Positions 11,421-25,206 of a stretch of DNA of 64,000 bases are shown here, piece after piece. The stretch covers positions 1,752 to 65,751 of the forward strand of contig CALUPO010000011.1 of NCBI GenBank assembly GCA_944322675.1, given 5' to 3'. A program made the position numbers and the translations under genes. The number at the start of each line of letters is the position of its first letter. Within the stretch, counting starts at the first letter, position 1. This DNA comes from Candidatus Gastranaerophilales bacterium. GTDB lineage: Bacteria > Cyanobacteriota > Vampirovibrionia > Gastranaerophilales > Gastranaerophilaceae. Below the pieces are notes generated by a model that ran no database searches, was not told the DNA's origin, and was given only the letters and a program-made list of their open reading frames with translations.

Positions 11421-13817
11421 ATGCCAAAAACAAAAGAAAAAGAAAGCGGAGAAATAAAACCTGATAAAAAAGTTAAAAAGAAAACAAAAACTACAAAAAC
11501 ATCCGCAAATATAAAAAAAATAGAAAAAGAAAAAAAATCAACTAAAAAAGAAAAATCAAGTAAAATTGATAATAATAAAAAACTTGTCATAGTTGAGTCA
11601 CCTGCAAAATCAAAAACCATTCGTAAAATTTTGGGAAATGATTACCTGATTGAAGCAAGTTATGGTCACATACGTGATTTCCCGCCCAAGGTTATGGGAT
11701 TTGATGAAAAAAAGAATTTTGAACCTATTTTTCAAGTTATACCAGAAAAAAAAGAAGTTGTAAAAAAATTGAATGATATAGCCAAAAAAGTAGGTAAGGT
11801 TTATCTTGCATCTGACCCTGACCGTGAAGGTGAGGCAATAGCATGGCATGTTCGTGAAGTGCTTGATGTCGATGACGATAAAATATGTAGAATAGCATTT
11901 AACGAAATTACTCCAAAAGCTGTAAAAGAAGCTGTCGAACATTCACGCAGTATTGATATGGATCGTGTTCATGCCCAACAAACAAGACAAATTCTTGATA
12001 GACTTGTAGGTTATTCAATAAGCCCTGTGTTATGGGAAAAATTAAAAAACAACAGGCTTTCAGCAGGTCGTGTTCAAAGCGTTGCTTTAAAAATGATATG
12101 TGAAAGAGAAAAAGAAATTGAAGCTTTTATACCTCAAGAATATTGGACTATTTCATCTTTATTTGAAGCCAAAGATATTCAATTTGAAGCAATATTGACT
12201 AAATTTAAAGGTAAAAAAATAGAAATAAAAAATGAAAATGAAGCAAATGAAATTTTAACAAAACTAAAGGAAAAAGGTGTTGAATTTGTTGTATCTCAGG
12301 TACAAGAACGGGAATCAACAAGAAAACCTCAAGCACCTTTTATAACATCAACTCTTCAACGAGAAGCTTCAAACAAATTAGGGTATGGTGTTTCAAAAAC
12401 CATGCAAATAGCTCAAAAATTGTATGAAGGGCTTGAAATTGATGGCGAGCCTGTCGGATTAATAACTTATATGAGAACAGATTCAACACGTATTTCAGAT
12501 GACGCTCAAGCTGCCGCTAAGGATTATATTATAAATAATATAGGTGAAAAATATTATCCTCAAACACCAAATGTTTACTCAAAAAGTAAAAAAAATACCC
12601 AGGATGCTCACGAAGCAATAAGACCTGCTTATATTGAAAAAACTCCGGAAAGTTTAAAGCATCTTCTTTCAAATGAACAATACCGACTTTATAAACTTAT
12701 CTGGGACAGATTTATGTCATCTCAAATGTCAAATGCCAAAATTGCAAATTTAAGTATTGAAATAAATGCTCTTGATTATACTTTTCGTACCTCATCTTCA
12801 AAAATATTATTTGACGGATTTTTAAAACTATACAATGATTCAGAAAATGAAGACAATGATAAAGATAATAAATTACCAAATTTGAAAAAAAATGATATAG
12901 TAAATCTTATAAAATTTGACCCAAAACAACACTTCACTCAACCACCAGGAAGGTTTTCCGAGGCAACTCTCGTTAAGGCTCTTGAAGAATATGGCATTGG
13001 AAGACCATCAACTTATGCTCCAATTATTACAAAAATTCAACAAAAAGGTTATGTTGAAAAAAATGATAAAGCTTTATGTCCTACTATTTTAGGGAGAACT
13101 GTTGTTGAACAACTGGATGAGCACTTTAAAAATATTATGAATTATGAGTTTACAGCATCAATGGAAACGCAACTTGATGATATTGCAGAGCAAAAAATAG
13201 AATGGACAAATGTTCTTAATGATTTCTATCATCCGTTTTTAGATGTTGTTAATCAGGCAAAAGAGAATATGGGAACTGTTTTAATTGATAGCGGCAAAGT
13301 TTGTCCAAATTGCGGTAAAAAAATGCTCGTTAAAACAAGCAGGTTTGGCACACAATTTTTAGGCTGCAGCGGATATCCGGAATGTAAAACAATGATGCCT
13401 TTAAAAACAGATGATTCTCTTGGGCAAATTAATGAAAAATCTGATGAAAAATGTGAAAAATGCCAAAGCGATATGATTGTTAAACACGGTCCATATGGCC
13501 CTTATCTTGAATGTACAAATGAAAATTGTAAAAATCGCAAAGCTATTTTAAAAACCATTGGAGTAAAATGTCCAAAAGAAGGTTGTAATGGTGAAATAGT
13601 TGTTCGCAAATCACGTTACGGCAAAATATTTTATGGTTGTAACAAGTATCCCGAATGCGATTTTGTCTCCTGGTATGAACCTGTAAATGAATTTTGTCCA
13701 AAATGCAAAAGTATTCTTGTTAAAAATATAACAAAACGGTATAATCGATTAAAATGTTCAAATAAAGAATGTGATTATGTGAGAAATCTTGATGTAGAAC
13801 AAGAAGATTCATTATAA
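11421..13817 (+). CDS. topA: DNA topoisomerase I with Lys-rich N-terminal extension and C-terminal zinc ribbons
   Basis: Toprim 'LVIVESPAKSKTI' and 'DPDREGEAIAWH'. Multiple C-terminal CxxC...C..C fingers ('CPNCGKKM...CSGYPECK'). Confidence 0.95.
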   Translation: MPKTKEKESGEIKPDKKVKKKTKTTKTSANIKKIEKEKKSTKKEKSSKIDNNKKLVIVESPAKSKTIRKILGNDYLIEASYGHIRDFPPKVMGFDEKKNFEPIFQVIPEKKEVVKKLNDIAKKVGKVYLASDPDREGEAIAWHVREVLDVDDDKICRIAFNEITPKAVKEAVEHSRSIDMDRVHAQQTRQILDRLVGYSISPVLWEKLKNNRLSAGRVQSVALKMICEREKEIEAFIPQEYWTISSLFEAKDIQFEAILTKFKGKKIEIKNENEANEILTKLKEKGVEFVVSQVQERESTRKPQAPFITSTLQREASNKLGYGVSKTMQIAQKLYEGLEIDGEPVGLITYMRTDSTRISDDAQAAAKDYIINNIGEKYYPQTPNVYSKSKKNTQDAHEAIRPAYIEKTPESLKHLLSNEQYRLYKLIWDRFMSSQMSNAKIANLSIEINALDYTFRTSSSKILFDGFLKLYNDSENEDNDKDNKLPNLKKNDIVNLIKFDPKQHFTQPPGRFSEATLVKALEEYGIGRPSTYAPIITKIQQKGYVEKNDKALCPTILGRTVVEQLDEHFKNIMNYEFTASMETQLDDIAEQKIEWTNVLNDFYHPFLDVVNQAKENMGTVLIDSGKVCPNCGKKMLVKTSRFGTQFLGCSGYPECKTMMPLKTDDSLGQINEKSDEKCEKCQSDMIVKHGPYGPYLECTNENCKNRKAILKTIGVKCPKEGCNGEIVVRKSRYGKIFYGCNKYPECDFVSWYEPVNEFCPKCKSILVKNITKRYNRLKCSNKECDYVRNLDVEQEDSL

Positions 13818-20388: not shown

Positions 20389-23300
20389 TCAACTATTTCT
20401 CAAACCCAAATTTGAAAATAATCCACTATACTGATAGGAACTTTGATTAAACATTTGTTCAATAATTTTATAATCAGCTTCCAATTTTGCCATAAGTTCA
20501 TCATTTTTAGATTTTAAAGAAGAAATTCGATTATTATATTCATCTAATTTATTGTTACTATTTGAATAGATACTTGCAAATTTTCCTTTAACAAACAAAT
20601 CAATAGAAGATACAATTGTATCTTGCAAATTTGACAAATAATTTGTAAAATTCATATTTTCATTTAAAGTATTTAACAATTTATCACTATCAACATTTAA
20701 AACAGAACCTCTTGAACTTTCATCATAACCAAATGTAAAACCAACAATTGACCCGTATGTTCCTTCACTTTGATTAACAACATTATTCATATTTTTTATT
20801 AGCTCATTAATTGCCATTTTATCTGAAAATGATGTAGTGTTATCAATAAGATTATTTATTTTTGAAGCTTGTTTCAAAACATTATTATAAGCATTAACAA
20901 ATTCATCTATAATTTTTTTGTTGCTTTCATCAATTTGTTCATTTACACTATTTATAACATCTTCAATACCTTCTAAAGATCCTCCTTCATTTGATGATGT
21001 TTCTATCTTGATATTAGTTTCTCTTATATCACCAATTTTAAAGTCGTCGTCATTTTTAACTTCAAATGTAACACTTCCATTTTCGTTTCCATTTTCATCA
21101 TATTGGCTTATAGTATAATAAAATTTATTATCAGTTGCATTTTTTGTAATAGTTTGAACTGTTAAAGGATTGCCTTCATTATCAGTTCCTGAAATTTGCA
21201 TTTGATTTTCATTTATTTTTTCTATATTAAGATTATAATTATTGCTGCTTAAATTTCCTGTTTTTTCAATCATTTGAATAATATTTGTTGCACCTGATAA
21301 ATCTTCAATCACTATATCAGGTGTTGCTGCTGTGGCTTCATTAACTGTTATGGTATGTTCACCTAGTTTAAATACATCAATATTAAATGAACCAAGCATA
21401 ACATTTTCATCATTAGATGACATATTTTTTACAATAGTTGAAAATGAAATACCATTATCATCAATAGAACTTGTAATATTTCCTATCTCATAATTTATAC
21501 CATCTTCATTTTTTACAGTTATCGTAACATCATCAGGTAAAGTTTGAACATTTGTATTAGTTGAATATACTCCATCTTTTATGGTAATAAATCCTAAATT
21601 AAGCAAAAAATTTTGTGAATAACCATTTCCCGATGCAAAATCAATATAGCTTAAATACCCGTCAGTCCTTTTTATTTGTAAAGAGCTAGTTATATCATTA
21701 AAAGAAGCTTCAACACCAGTATTAGCGTTATTAATTGCATCAATTAATTGATTTATAGTCCAACTTTGTTTTATTTCAATACTTGGTCCTCCATTTATTG
21801 TAATTGCATCATCCCATGCCAACCCCAAAGCTGATAGATTTTTATAATAATTTCCTGCTTCATCACCTTGAATCTTTGCTTCAAACTGATATTCTTCTAC
21901 AACCGGCTTTAACATATTAACAATTGAGCTTGAACCACTAATTTGAATATTACTACGAGGTATAAAACCGCTATTACTAATAAAGTTTTGTGTTAAAAGA
22001 TCATAATTAAAACCTATTTTTTCTTGCATAAATATTTTAAATGCATCAACTGTGGTATTTGAGTCTATATTAAAAATCTCTTCATTACCATTAATATTAA
22101 TTATTAAATCACCTTCTGTAATTTTATTATTAGAGTCTGTGTCATATGAATAGTTTATTAATTTATCATCAATTGTAGGCGGTGCATCATCACCGGTTTT
22201 CGCATTTATAGTAACTGTTGTATCAACCAAAGATATTAATTGAAAGAAGGCATTATTTCCACTTGTTATATTTCTAATATTAATGGTATTATCACTGCTC
22301 ACTTCAAGACCAAGCCCTTTAACAACATCAAGGACAGTATCACCTTCTTGTGGTGCATAATCTTTTCTAACGTCATTTATTGTGATAGTATATCTTATTT
22401 TAGGATCAACACTATTTGACATTATTGAAGAAATATCTGCTTCCATTGTATAGTCAGAGAGATTATAATAATTTTCTAAATTATTATCATTGAAATCTAA
22501 ATACTTTAATATATAGGTAGTGCTGCCATCTTTGATCGTATATTGGTTTATAGTCGAAGTAAATTTTATATTAGATTCATTAACTTGCATACTAATGCCA
22601 CCATTTGAACCGCCTAAGTAATAAGAATTGCCATAAGTTCCTTCATTCGCTATTGTACCTTCCCATGTTTTTGAATTTGTCCCTAATCCATCATCAATAG
22701 TTAAATTCAATATGCCTGAAAAATTTACGTCTTCAAAATTAGTATAAAATCCTTGGAAATCCGATGTATCAATTGTGCCATTGCTTAATGCACTTGCTAA
22801 AGAATCTAAATTCAAAACATCAACAACACTTCCTTCACTTGTATTTGAGCTTGAAAAGCTTAAACTTTGATATCCTAAACCTGTATTCATTTGAATACTA
22901 ATTTTTCCATTTAAATCTATTGAAGCACCTTTAATAATATTGGACTTATTATTAAGATTGTTTAGAAAATCATTAATTGTAGTCTGTTCATTTATATCAA
23001 TAATTATTTCTTCTGTGTCTCCAACTATAACAGTCACCGTTTCACTTGGTCCTTGAATATTATAGCCAGCCAACTCAAATATTTTTTGACTGCCAATGTG
23101 TTCTTTCTTAAATTTAATATCGTCAAATCCACTAGAAGATTCAGCATAAATAGAATCCCCTGAGACATTTATTGTATAATCTCCAGGTGCAAAAGTTCCT
23201 TCATAATTTCCAACATTTATTGCATATAAATCATTTGAAACAACACCTGCAGGTTTTGAAGCCTGCCCTTTTATTATTAAGTCATTTGTTATTGTAATAA

Positions 23301-23601
23301 GAGAGGAACTGCCTTGTGAAATATTTATATCAGAATTAACTTTATTTTTTAAACCCGCCAGATTTTGAGTTTTTGTCGACAAAATAGCAAGCTGAGATTT
23401 TAAATTGTCAAGATAACTAATTTTATTTGTCAAACTTTGAGCCTTGGATTCATATTTTGATATTAAATTTTGATTTAAACTACTTGTCTTATCAAGCATA
23501 TTTGATTTTATTAAACTAAGTAAATTATCACTTCCATAACCTGAACTGCTTCCCCATAAAGCTTGAGCAGCATATTGATTATAATTTAATAAAGATGACA
23601 T
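20389..23601 (-). CDS. fliD: flagellar filament cap protein FliD, unusually large (about 1070 aa)
   Basis: N-terminus 'LISKYESKAQSLTNKISYLDNLKSQLAILSTKTQNL', central 'IIDEFVNAYNNVLKQ' (cf. E. coli 'IKDWVNAYNSLIDTF'), C-terminus 'LEADYKIIEQMFNQSSYQYSGLF'. Start is ATG 23601 or TTG 23604, after GGAG. Confidence 0.8.
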   Translation of the reverse strand: MSSLLNYNQYAAQALWGSSSGYGSDNLLSLIKSNMLDKTSSLNQNLISKYESKAQSLTNKISYLDNLKSQLAILSTKTQNLAGLKNKVNSDINISQGSSSLITITNDLIIKGQASKPAGVVSNDLYAINVGNYEGTFAPGDYTINVSGDSIYAESSSGFDDIKFKKEHIGSQKIFELAGYNIQGPSETVTVIVGDTEEIIIDINEQTTINDFLNNLNNKSNIIKGASIDLNGKISIQMNTGLGYQSLSFSSSNTSEGSVVDVLNLDSLASALSNGTIDTSDFQGFYTNFEDVNFSGILNLTIDDGLGTNSKTWEGTIANEGTYGNSYYLGGSNGGISMQVNESNIKFTSTINQYTIKDGSTTYILKYLDFNDNNLENYYNLSDYTMEADISSIMSNSVDPKIRYTITINDVRKDYAPQEGDTVLDVVKGLGLEVSSDNTINIRNITSGNNAFFQLISLVDTTVTINAKTGDDAPPTIDDKLINYSYDTDSNNKITEGDLIININGNEEIFNIDSNTTVDAFKIFMQEKIGFNYDLLTQNFISNSGFIPRSNIQISGSSSIVNMLKPVVEEYQFEAKIQGDEAGNYYKNLSALGLAWDDAITINGGPSIEIKQSWTINQLIDAINNANTGVEASFNDITSSLQIKRTDGYLSYIDFASGNGYSQNFLLNLGFITIKDGVYSTNTNVQTLPDDVTITVKNEDGINYEIGNITSSIDDNGISFSTIVKNMSSNDENVMLGSFNIDVFKLGEHTITVNEATAATPDIVIEDLSGATNIIQMIEKTGNLSSNNYNLNIEKINENQMQISGTDNEGNPLTVQTITKNATDNKFYYTISQYDENGNENGSVTFEVKNDDDFKIGDIRETNIKIETSSNEGGSLEGIEDVINSVNEQIDESNKKIIDEFVNAYNNVLKQASKINNLIDNTTSFSDKMAINELIKNMNNVVNQSEGTYGSIVGFTFGYDESSRGSVLNVDSDKLLNTLNENMNFTNYLSNLQDTIVSSIDLFVKGKFASIYSNSNNKLDEYNNRISSLKSKNDELMAKLEADYKIIEQMFNQSSYQYSGLFSNLGLRNS

Positions 23602-23682
23602 CAAAAAATCACTCCAAACTTTATATATTATAACTATTCCACATTTATTGTAGTAGTAAACACAATGTTAAGTTTTATATAT

Positions 23683-23711
23683 TTTACTTTTTATAAAACA
23701 AGTGATATAAT
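23683..23711 (+). promoter_or_regulatory. extended -10 promoter (TTTACT-N17-TGaTATAAT) for the candidate ncRNA
   Basis: TTTACT at 23683-23688, a 17-nt spacer ending in TGA, and TATAAT at 23706-23711. Confidence 0.5.
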
Positions 23712-23717
23712 ACTTAC

Positions 23718-23983
23718 TAGCTTTATACGGGTTCAATTTTGTTCCTACATCTTTATAAATAGGGTACAAGTTGCTCTTTTAATACCGAAGTAGACCGGGG
23801 GGATTATGTATTTTAATCATAAACCCAAAAAATTTAGGGAATAATGTATATATGTATTTAAATTATAAATATCTATATAGTATTAAAATAAATATCCTCA
23901 TTGCCGGAAATGGAATGTATTTAGGCGCTAACCCACCTGCAGGAGCTTTGCAGGTAACAAAATCACCCGTATAGGGCTTTTTT
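23718..23983 (+). ncRNA. candidate structured small RNA (about 265 nt), class unknown, 6S-like rod possible
   Basis: A 13-bp terminal helix pairs 23720-23732 (gctttatacgggt) with 23965-23977 (acccgtatagggc). It contains two G-U pairs that only work on the + strand. A 7-bp extension pairs 23737-23743 with 23956-23962. A T6 run (23778... i.e. 23978-23983) follows the helix. GC-richer segments flank an AT-rich core. Confidence 0.5.
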
Positions 23984-24029
23984 ATATATTATTTAAATGG
24001 TTGAATTGTCTTTATTTATAAAATAAATA

Positions 24030-24038
24030 TGGTATAAT
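24030..24038 (+). promoter_or_regulatory. extended -10 element (TGgTATAAT) upstream of the response-regulator gene
   Basis: TGGTATAAT at 24030-24038, downstream of the ncRNA terminator and 38 nt upstream of the ATG at 24076. Confidence 0.4.
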
Positions 24039-24075
24039 TATTTTTATAAAAATTAAAAGTAAATACGGAAATATT

Positions 24076-25206
24076 ATGCAACAAGTCTCAAATGAAAATA
24101 AAGGAACAAATGTAAATTCATTAAAAGAATCTTTAGATGGTCTTTTTAATATAAGTAATTTAATCACAAAACCAACTATATTAATAGTTGATGATGAAGA
24201 AAATAATCTTCAACTTTTAGTTCGCACATTTAGATCAAGTTATTCTATCTTAACGGCACAAAATGGTGAAGAAGCTTGTGAAATTGTAAATAAACAAGGT
24301 GAAAATATTTCACTTATTATAACCGACCAGATTATGCCTGTTATGACAGGTGTTCAATTCCTCAAAAAAATTACACCACAATATCCTAATATTGTAAAAA
24401 TATTATTAACGGGCTATTCTGATTCAAATGATATTATTGATGCAATTAACCATTGTAATATATACCAATATGTCTTAAAACCATTCACTCCAACGGATTT
24501 AAAGTTTATTGTAAGTCAAGCATTAACCAAATATAATCTTGCAAAATCAAACCTTTTAATGATAAAAGACTTAAAAGAATTATTTTATAACACTTTAAAA
24601 GCAATATCATCAGCACTTGATTCAAAAGATCCTTATACTCATGGTCATTCAATGCGTGTTACAATGTATTCACTTATCCTTGCAAGAAAGCTTAATTTAG
24701 ATGATAAAATGCTTGAAGAAATAGAAACAGCAGGTTTACTTCATGATATCGGTAAAATAGGTATACCACAAAACATATTATGTAAACCCGGTAAGTTAAC
24801 AGATGAAGAATTTGCCATTATGAAATCACATCCAGAGAAAGGTGAAAAAATTCTTATGGGAATTAAGAGATTATCCATCATTTCAAATTGGCTCAAAACT
24901 CATCATGAAAGATGGGATGGCAAAGGCTATCCTCTTGGCTTAAAAGGTGAAGAAATACCATTTTCATCAAGAATTATTGCACTTGCCGACACTTATGATG
25001 CAATGACTTCAACACGTTCCTACCGTAAAGCACTTACTCATGAAATTGCTATTTCAGAAATTGAAAAATGTGCAGGAACTCAATTTGACCCTAACTTAGC
25101 TAAAATGTTTGTTGAAGTGCAAGATGAAATCCTCGAAGCAAAAAATAACCCCGAGGAATATTACAAAAAATATAGCTATATCTATAAAAACTCTAAATTT
25201 ATATAG
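24076..25206 (+). CDS. response regulator with receiver + HD-GYP output domain (RpfG-like)
   Basis: Receiver 'ILIVDDEENNLQLL...IITDQIMPVMTG...KILLTGYSD'. Output 'LLHDIGKIGIP' and 'HHERWDGKGYP'. Confidence 0.9.
   Translation: MQQVSNENKGTNVNSLKESLDGLFNISNLITKPTILIVDDEENNLQLLVRTFRSSYSILTAQNGEEACEIVNKQGENISLIITDQIMPVMTGVQFLKKITPQYPNIVKILLTGYSDSNDIIDAINHCNIYQYVLKPFTPTDLKFIVSQALTKYNLAKSNLLMIKDLKELFYNTLKAISSALDSKDPYTHGHSMRVTMYSLILARKLNLDDKMLEEIETAGLLHDIGKIGIPQNILCKPGKLTDEEFAIMKSHPEKGEKILMGIKRLSIISNWLKTHHERWDGKGYPLGLKGEEIPFSSRIIALADTYDAMTSTRSYRKALTHEIAISEIEKCAGTQFDPNLAKMFVEVQDEILEAKNNPEEYYKKYSYIYKNSKFI

What the first reader, a model, noticed from the sequence alone, without database searches (positions are those of the whole stretch)
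23683..23983. Stand-alone structured RNA (about 265 nt) between fliD and the HD-GYP response regulator
The 470-bp gap holds a complete transcription unit with no ORF. It has an extended -10 promoter (TTTACT-N17-TGaTATAAT). The transcript's 5' end (gctttatacgggt) pairs over 13 bp with its 3' end (acccgtatagggc). A 7-bp extension (ttttgtt/aacaaaa) and an internal hairpin (cctgca/tgcagg) add to this, and a T6 run follows directly. Two G-U pairs in the closing helix would be A-C mismatches on the other strand, which fixes the strand. The downstream gene has its own TGgTATAAT promoter after the terminator, so this is not a simple 5' leader. A long closing rod with an AT-rich centre is reminiscent of 6S RNA, but the length and sequence do not let me assign a class.
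Basis: seen in the sequence. Interest (0 to 1): 0.6.

Follow-up and report, generated by a model that had tools for sequence, protein, structure and literature searches.

The report
6S RNA gene with expanded tip
The unexplained 265-base structured RNA is this gut bacterium's copy of 6S RNA, the common regulator that mimics an open promoter and holds RNA polymerase; the standard database model misses it because an extra 89-base AT-rich piece sits in the tip of its hairpin arm.

Summary
Window 23719-23983 (+) is a stand-alone transcription unit: an extended -10 promoter, a 13-14 bp helix joining the 5' and 3' ends, and a T6 run. It has no conserved ORF.

It is not a new RNA class. It is the 6S RNA (ssrS) of a Gastranaerophilales genome (Vampirovibrionia, the non-photosynthetic relatives of cyanobacteria).

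- **Distribution:** it is single-copy and conserved in 72 of 74 sampled genomes of its family. Weaker full-length matches occur across the class.
- **Structure:** 30 of 52 base pairs show compensatory changes.
- **Link to 6S:** Rfam's 6S model (RF00013) gives nothing on the window. It does match the orthologues in sister genera over its full length at the same coordinates, at 33-55 bits, three of them above the 46.4-bit cut-off.
- **Cross-check:** a covariance model built from this family finds 6S RNAs in other classes of the phylum that score above the Rfam cut-off.

The layout is standard for 6S: closing stem, an open 18-nt 5' half of the central bubble, a hairpin in the 3' half, and an apical arm. 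It is an 89-nt expansion of the apical loop, found only in this genus.

This is an ordinary finding of modest annotation value.

The parts
23683..23688 (+). -35-like hexamer TTTACT of the ssrS promoter
   Evidence: Promoter scan. In 84 of 116 homologues the -35 matches TTGACA at 4-5 of 6 positions with a 16-18 nt spacer.
23703..23711 (+). Extended -10 element TGaTATAAT
   Evidence: In 100 of 116 homologues a TG-extended -10 was found, nearly always at a fixed distance of 22-25 nt upstream of helix P2.
23719..23983 (+). Predicted 6S RNA (ssrS) transcript, about 265 nt. The 5' end is inferred from the promoter spacing and the 3' end from the T-run.
   Evidence: R1 covariance model, 111.1 bits, E = 5e-28, full length at 23716-23985. 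Orthologues hit RF00013. Single copy in the genome.
23720..23732 (+). Closing stem P1, 5' strand. It pairs with 23965-23977.
   Evidence: 12 of 14 pairs show compensatory changes in 62 sequences.
23736..23743 (+). Helix P2, 5' strand AUUUUGUU. It pairs with 23956-23963 and corresponds to the downstream duplex of 6S RNA. With the first bases of the bubble it is the inferred template for product RNA.
   Evidence: Invariant in 62 of 62 sequences. The equivalence to P2 / downstream duplex comes from the RF00013 alignment and PMC8876501.
23744..23761 (+). 5' half of the central bubble, CCUACAUCUUUAUAAAUA: unpaired and A/U-rich, with CCUAC nearly invariant
   Evidence: Left open in the MFE folds of three typical homologues. 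Aligned to the unpaired 5' bubble of RF00013.
23762..23771 (+). Apical-arm helix P3, 5' strand GGGUACAAGU. It pairs with 23927-23934.
   Evidence: Pair at columns 61:228 occurs as GC 42, AU 14, UA 2.
23781..23785 (+). Apical-arm helix P5, 5' strand AAUAC. It pairs with GUAUU at 23917-23921.
   Evidence: All 6 pairs show changes on both sides. The middle four pairs each have 3-4 pair types.
23786..23794 (+). Conserved internal-loop strand (C)GAAGUAGA. It faces AAAUGGAAU at 23908-23916.
   Evidence: G, A, G, U, A and ACC are invariant in 62 sequences. It matches the RF00013 consensus around GuGcAaGCC / GGAAgC.
23795..23804 (+). Apical helix P4, 5' strand CCGGGGGGAU. It pairs with AUCCUC..CCGG at 23894-23907.
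   Evidence: Fold. P4a and P4b covary in 62 sequences.
23805..23893 (+). Genus-specific AT-rich expansion of the apical loop, 89 nt. Other genera have about 3-10 nt here.
   Evidence: Alignments. cmsearch shows 94 nt where the model has 8 positions. Congeners carry 62-84 nt here with little sequence conservation. No repeat elsewhere in the genome.
23935..23955 (+). Hairpin in the 3' half of the central bubble, ACCUGCA-GGAGCUU-UGCAGGU, preceded by the invariant ACCC
   Evidence: Stem invariant in 62 of 62 sequences. Aligned to CACCCACCUgg..CaGGu of the RF00013 consensus.
23956..23963 (+). Helix P2, 3' strand AACAAAAU
23965..23977 (+). Closing stem P1, 3' strand
23978..23983 (+). T6 run. It is the inferred intrinsic termination site, with the closing stem acting as the terminator helix.
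   Evidence: 99 of 116 homologues have a run of four or more T after P1. The terminator scan itself found nothing, because the 'loop' is far larger than it allows.

Best explanation
This is the ssrS gene, which encodes the 6S RNA of a Gastranaerophilales bacterium.

Shown here:
- It is a single-copy, stand-alone gene with a sigma-70-type extended -10 promoter and a T-run right after the closing stem.
- It folds into the standard 6S layout. P1 and P2 form the closing stem. The central bubble has an open, A/U-rich 18-nt 5' half and a pre-formed 6-7 bp hairpin in its 3' half. P3, P5 and P4 form an apical arm interrupted by conserved internal loops.
- It is orthologous to RNAs that the Rfam 6S model recognises.

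Inferred from what is known of 6S RNA in E. coli and B. subtilis (PMC8876501, PMC9670815):
- The RNA mimics an open promoter and binds the housekeeping sigma-RNA polymerase holoenzyme, which lowers transcription when growth slows.
- On nutrient upshift the polymerase uses the 5' bubble and the 5' strand of P2 as a template for a short product RNA. This region is the invariant AUUUUGUUCCUAC. A product RNA such as 5'-GUAGGAACAAAAU is possible.
- Synthesis of that product RNA unwinds P2 and releases the enzyme.

The 89-nt AT-rich segment (23805-23893) replaces the apical loop. It lies beyond the whole canonical apical arm, so it should point away from the polymerase. It is most likely a neutral, fast-evolving expansion.
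For: 1. Orthologues are widespread. BLAST and a covariance model find one copy per genome in 72 of 74 sampled genomes of the same family. Full-length weaker matches occur in six other families of the class.
2. The structure is supported by covariation. 30 of 52 pairs have changes on both sides. 90.7% of cells are paired, against 35-48% when partners are slid.
3. RF00013 (6S) aligns over its full length (1-187) to exactly the orthologous coordinates:
   - L022 55.2 bits, L017 51.4 and L019 46.8, all above the 46.4 cut-off.
   - Eight more loci at 33-46 bits.
   - In 21 of 27 genomes of the class the top hit at 23-46 bits falls on the coordinates that R1 matches (or, in G044, later matched). E is 1e-6 to 1e-8 for the better ones.
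4. The Rfam 6S consensus shares the family's invariant blocks: GGGag, GCCcgg..ccgGGAAgC and CACCCACCUgg..CaGGu.
5. The reciprocal test works. Model R1, built from this family, hits 17 genomes in other classes of the phylum. In 7 of 8 tested, the R1 coordinates carry an RF00013 match above the cut-off, at 54-84 bits.
6. No other 6S candidate exists in the genome. SRP RNA lies elsewhere.
7. The promoter and T-run are conserved at fixed positions in about 100 of 116 homologues.
8. The neighbouring genes are not conserved.
Against: - The window's own copy gets no RF00013 hit at all: E <= 10 on the region, on the whole genome, and none for its four congeners or L013. Membership therefore rests on orthology, not on a direct family match.
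- At about 265 nt it is well above the roughly 200 nt usual for 6S.
- Nothing was measured on expression, polymerase binding or product RNA.
- Masking the predicted template gave no alternative helix in folding. The release mechanism is therefore inferred only by analogy.
Confidence: 0.95

Rival explanations
1. It is a new class of structured non-coding RNA unrelated to 6S, and the resemblance to a rod with a bubble is coincidental.
For: The window copy has no Rfam hit at any threshold tried. Long stretches are invariant and the apical arm has conserved internal loops, which is more sequence conservation than 6S usually shows.
Against: Orthologues hit RF00013 over its full length, three of them above the cut-off. 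R1 retrieves above-cut-off 6S RNAs in other classes. The invariant blocks are the same ones present in the Rfam 6S consensus. No other 6S candidate exists in these genomes.
Confidence: 0.02
2. It is a cis-acting leader or riboswitch that controls the downstream REC-HD-GYP (c-di-GMP phosphodiesterase) gene by termination at the T-run.
For: It lies on the same strand, 92 bp upstream of the HD-GYP gene's start codon, and ends in a helix plus T-run. The pairing with the HD-GYP gene is kept within the genus.
Against: An HD-GYP homologue lies near the RNA in only 8 of 138 loci, four or five of them from the same genus. The 22 bp of P1 and P2 are far too stable for a ligand-gated switch. The downstream gene has its own TGgTATAAT (24030-24038). 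The RNA is identified as 6S.
Confidence: 0.01
3. It is 6S RNA, but the 89-nt apical expansion is a functional add-on rather than neutral. It could be a binding site for another protein, a processing site, or a second structural domain.
For: An expansion of 62-89 nt is kept in all five species of the genus. An independent 61-nt insertion sits at the same place in another family (G057), and a two-hairpin expansion occurs in L024.
Against: The sequence of the expansion is poorly conserved even among congeners, and the predicted folds differ. It has no match elsewhere in the genome. Published truncation work shows that the distal arms of 6S-1 are dispensable for the basic cycle (PMC8876501), so the tip is under weak constraint.
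Confidence: 0.1

Closest known systems
6S RNA / SsrS (Rfam RF00013), in particular the cyanobacterial 6S RNAs and the B. subtilis 6S-1 type
   Same: - Stand-alone single-copy gene.
- Closing stem formed by the 5' and 3' ends.
- Central bubble with an open 5' half.
- Pre-formed small hairpin in the 3' half of the bubble, as described for B. subtilis 6S-1 (PMC8876501).
- Apical arm with internal loops.
- Shared consensus blocks GGGag, ccgGGAAgC and CACCCACCUgg..CaGGu.
- The core is 176 nt once the insertion is left out.
   Different: - The window copy carries an 89-nt AT-rich expansion in place of the apical loop, giving about 265 nt in total.
- Helix P3 has changed to GGGUACAAGU / GCUAACCC.
- As a result RF00013 gives no hit on it.
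- Across Vampirovibrionia most copies score below the Rfam cut-off: 0 of 27 genomes reached it, and 3 of 16 loci.
Ms1 RNA of Actinobacteria (6S-like, binds core RNA polymerase; PMC9130861)
   Same: It is a rod-like, 6S-related secondary structure and longer than canonical 6S.
   Different: Ms1 occurs in Actinobacteria that lack 6S, and it binds the core enzyme rather than the holoenzyme. No sequence or model link was found here. This RNA is orthologous to true 6S RNAs.

Membership tests
6S RNA (Rfam RF00013) | Match to the family covariance model at or above the gathering score (46.4 bits) | tested here: not met
   The window copy gets no hit at gathering, none at E <= 10 on 23550-24120 and none in the whole genome. 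Its orthologues do match: L022 55.2, L017 51.4 and L019 46.8 bits, plus eight more at 33-46 bits, all full length at the homologous coordinates. The failure is explained by the 89-nt insertion and the altered P3.
6S RNA (Rfam RF00013) | Orthology to RNAs that are recognised members of the family | tested here: met
   R1, built from 62 homologues that include the window, scores the window at 111 bits. In other classes of the phylum it hits the same coordinates as RF00013 matches of 54-84 bits in 7 of 8 genomes tested.
6S RNA (Rfam RF00013) | Rod-like fold: closing stem of the 5' and 3' ends, large central bubble, apical stem-loop with internal loops (PMC8876501) | tested here: met
   The structure is supported by covariation. 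MFE folds of three typical homologues reproduce it, with an 18-nt open 5' bubble and a hairpin in the 3' bubble. In the MFE fold of the window copy itself the 5' bubble is partly paired with the GAAGUAG loop, so the open bubble there rests on the homologues.
6S RNA (Rfam RF00013) | Length of roughly 150-200 nt | tested here: not met
   The window copy is about 265 nt. Orthologues outside the genus are 171-208 nt. The excess is the apical expansion at 23805-23893.
6S RNA (Rfam RF00013) | Independent gene present once (sometimes twice) per genome and widely conserved | tested here: met
   One copy in the own genome. 72 of 74 sampled genomes of the family have exactly one. Promoter and T-run are conserved.
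6S RNA (Rfam RF00013) | Binds the housekeeping sigma-RNA polymerase holoenzyme and serves as template for short product RNAs | not testable with these tools
   This needs biochemistry or small-RNA sequencing. The invariant AUUUUGUUCCUAC (23736-23748) is only a candidate template.
6S RNA (Rfam RF00013) | Abundant stable transcript that accumulates in stationary phase | not testable with these tools
Riboswitch or cis-regulatory leader | Conserved position upstream of the same gene or gene class | tested here: not met
   An HD-GYP homologue lies near the RNA in only 8 of 138 loci.

The most novel reading that the evidence does not exclude
The genus-specific 62-89 nt expansion at the tip of the 6S apical arm, and the independent insertions at the same site in other Vampirovibrionia, might be a functional module rather than neutral growth. 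It could recruit a second factor or change 6S stability or processing. That would make this a 6S RNA with an added domain.
Probability: 0.1. Interest if true: 0.4.

Novelty: new member of a known kind. Interest (0 to 1): 0.15.

Why it matters
The main value is for annotation.

- The standard Rfam model fails on this genome.
- It also scores most 6S RNAs of the Vampirovibrionia below its cut-off.
- Genome annotations of these gut and rumen relatives of cyanobacteria therefore lack a regulator that they do have.
- The 62-sequence structural alignment made here (A2, model R1) could extend the 6S seed alignment.

The finding also shows that the apical tip of 6S tolerates large, fast-evolving expansions. 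This agrees with published truncation data. It does not open a new biological question.

Tried and rejected
- **Rfam on the window.** No hit at gathering over the whole window. Only a spurious PK-repBA hit at E <= 10 on the region.
- **SRP RNA.** Rejected: RF01854 hits a different contig, G000:C18:7372-7635.
- **Repeat or mobile element.** Rejected: the sequence is single-copy, and the other matches are weak AT-rich noise.
- **Riboswitch or leader for the HD-GYP gene.** Rejected on lack of synteny and on the stability of the stem.
- **Small ORFs inside the RNA (23665-23793 and 23852-23974).** Rejected: they span the non-conserved insertion and are absent in other genera.
- **Release helix.** I looked for a "central bubble collapse helix" or an extended 3' hairpin by folding 58 homologues with the predicted template masked. 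None formed in the MFE structures, so I make no claim on the release rearrangement.
- **Possible pseudoknots (UUCC with GGAA, CUAC with GUAG).** They could not be tested because the columns are invariant or inconsistent.
- **Literature.** No paper in the library holds both "6S RNA" and "Melainabacteria".
- **First promoter tally.** It used a crude rule and was redone more carefully.

Full report
**What is in the sequence.**
- Promoter: TTTACT, 17 nt, TGaTATAAT (23683-23711). The promoter scan also picked it up.
- Closing helix: 13 bp, GCUUUAUACGGGU / ACCCGUAUAGGGC (23720-23732 with 23965-23977), with two U-G pairs.
- Second helix: AUUUUGUU / AACAAAAU (23736-23743 with 23956-23963).
- Hairpin: ACCUGCA...UGCAGGU (23935-23955).
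- T6 run: 23978-23983.

The plus strand folds at -72.8 kcal/mol (z = -4.1). The sequence is single-copy in its 2.1-Mb genome.

**Conservation and organism.** BLAST against relatives found the element in all four congeners. In about 15 other genera of the same family only the two ends matched (query positions 6-50 and 189-271). Outside the genus the RNA is 171-208 nt long.

A pattern scan of GTDB species genomes with ACCCACCTGC-N5-11-GCAGGTAACAAA returned at least 120 loci. Nearly all are titled Gastranaerophilales, Melainabacteria or 'Cyanobacteria bacterium' MAGs from gut and rumen. The window therefore comes from a Gastranaerophilales genome (class Vampirovibrionia). Earlier notes on this genome say the same.

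**Structure.** On a MAFFT alignment of 62 non-redundant sequences (A2) I counted a hand-derived structure of 52 pairs.

| Helix | Result on 62 sequences |
|---|---|
| P1 (14 bp) | 12 pairs change on both sides |
| P2 (8 bp) | invariant |
| P3, GGG(A)GAGU / GCUC(A)CCC | one pair occurs as GC 42, AU 14, UA 2 |
| P5 | all six pairs covary |
| P4a / P4b | covary |
| P6 hairpin | invariant |

Overall, 90.7% of cells are paired. The figure is 83.1% in column shuffles (0 of 500 reach the observed value) and 35-48% when the 3' partners are slid by 1-3 columns.

MFE folds of three typical homologues reproduce this structure without any constraint.
- P1 and P2 form a long closing stem.
- An 18-nt A/U-rich stretch (CCUACAUUUUUAUUAAUA in L060) stays open.
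- P3, P5 and P4 form an arm with conserved internal loops (UGAAGUAUA / AAACGGAU).
- P6 sits as a hairpin on the 3' side of the opening.

This is the textbook 6S layout: closing stem, central bubble and apical stem, with a small pre-formed hairpin in the 3' bubble as in B. subtilis 6S-1 (PMC8876501).

**Identification as 6S RNA.** Rfam 15 gives nothing on the window at gathering thresholds. It gives nothing at E <= 10 on the region. RF00013 finds nothing anywhere in the genome. SRP RNA is on another contig.

I built covariance model R1 from A2 (183 positions, 52 pairs). Three results then link the RNA to 6S.

1. *Distribution of R1 hits.* Over 251 genomes of the class, R1 finds exactly one copy in 72 of 74 genomes of the window's family, at 111-195 bits. 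It finds full-length weaker matches (26-70 bits) in six other families.
2. *RF00013 on the same genomes.* RF00013 aligns over its full length to the coordinates that R1 matches (in G044, matched) in 21 of 27 genomes, always as the top hit. This includes members of the window's own family. Examples: G076 45.5 bits, G048 45.8, G016 39.5, G214 39.6.
3. *RF00013 on homologue loci.* With the laxer filters of a small cmscan, 11 of 16 same-family loci hit RF00013 at the homologous coordinates. Three are above the 46.4-bit cut-off: L022 55.2, L017 51.4, L019 46.8.

The alignments show that the invariant blocks of this family are the blocks of the Rfam 6S consensus: GGGag, GCCcgg...ccgGGAAgC and CACCCACCUgg...CaGGu.

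The reciprocal test also holds. R1 hits 17 genomes in other classes of the phylum at 46-80 bits. In 7 of the 8 I checked, those coordinates carry an RF00013 match above the cut-off, at 54-84 bits. The RNA is therefore the ssrS product.

**Why Rfam misses the window's copy.** In the window's genus the apical hairpin P4 (CCGGGGGGAU / AUCCUC..CCGG) carries an 89-nt AT-rich segment (23805-23893) instead of a 3-10 nt loop. cmsearch shows 94 nt where the model has 8 positions.
- Congeners have 62-84 nt at this place, with little sequence conservation and different predicted folds.
- The segment has no relative elsewhere in the genome.
- This genus and its nearest outgroup (L013) have also altered P3 to GGGUAYAAG / CUAACCC. 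None of these six copies hits RF00013.

Independent expansions occur at the same tip in other lineages: 61 nt in G057 and a two-hairpin insert in L024. The real central bubble is 23744-23761 together with the hairpin at 23935-23955.

**Gene organisation.**
- In 100 of 116 homologues a TG-extended -10 was found, nearly always 22-25 nt upstream of P2, that is 5-8 nt before P1. In 84 of 116 the -35 matches at 4-5 of 6 positions.
- In 99 of 116 a run of four or more T follows P1.
- The RNA is thus a primary transcript that begins at the foot of the closing stem and ends just after it.
- The neighbours are not conserved. Homologues of the HD-GYP gene lie near the RNA in only 8 of 138 loci, and homologues of the upstream ORF only within the genus. 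This excludes a leader function.

**Mechanism.** The fold and the orthology are shown here. The function is inferred from E. coli and B. subtilis work (PMC8876501, PMC9670815).
- The RNA mimics an open promoter and sequesters the housekeeping holoenzyme.
- On outgrowth the enzyme copies the 5' bubble and the 5' strand of P2 into a short product RNA. P2 unwinds and the complex falls apart.
- The complete invariance of AUUUUGUUCCUAC (23736-23748), with no covariation in P2, fits a constraint at the sequence level such as templating. That is a conjecture.
- Masking this stretch produced no alternative helix in MFE folds.
- The expansion begins only after the full canonical apical arm. Truncated 6S-1 RNAs that lack the distal arms still complete the cycle (PMC8876501). 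The expansion is therefore most likely tolerated rather than needed.

**What could not be done.** The library holds no paper with both '6S RNA' and 'Melainabacteria'.

**Verdict.** It is a new, unannotated member of a well-known family with an unusual apical expansion. Interest is low, with modest value for annotation.

Noticed in passing
window 20389-23604 (-): The upstream 1071-aa ORF that the finding calls fliD has no Pfam hit as a whole. Its N-terminal 150 aa give only a sub-threshold FliD_N match (E = 0.0045, 18 bits against a cut-off of 24.8). Homologues next to the 6S gene occur only within the genus. The 'giant FliD' label remains unverified.
   Followed up: partly
G041-G283 (class Vampirovibrionia); loci L009-L026: Rfam's 6S model scores most Vampirovibrionia 6S RNAs below its gathering cut-off. 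0 of 27 genomes reached it, and 3 of 16 same-family loci. 6S RNA is therefore probably missing from most annotations of this class.
   Followed up: yes
L197 (G057:C1:1292462-1292699) and L024:1496-1703: Independent expansions sit at the same apical-loop position of 6S in other lineages: 61 nt in G057 (a different family) and a two-hairpin insert in L024. The apical tip looks like a recurrent site of growth.
   Followed up: partly
G336:C224:8381-8563 and 13430-13612: One genome of another class in the phylum has two 6S copies above the Rfam cut-off, about 5 kb apart on one contig (78.2 and 51.6 bits).
   Followed up: no
window 23736-23748 and 23931-23963: AUUUUGUUCC-U-C and ACCCACCUGC...GCAGGUAACAAAAU are invariant in 62 of 62 non-redundant sequences, although they form helices that could covary. 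This suggests constraints on the sequence itself, such as polymerase contacts or the product-RNA template.
   Followed up: partly
The promoter scan did not list it because no acceptable -35 accompanies it.
   Followed up: no
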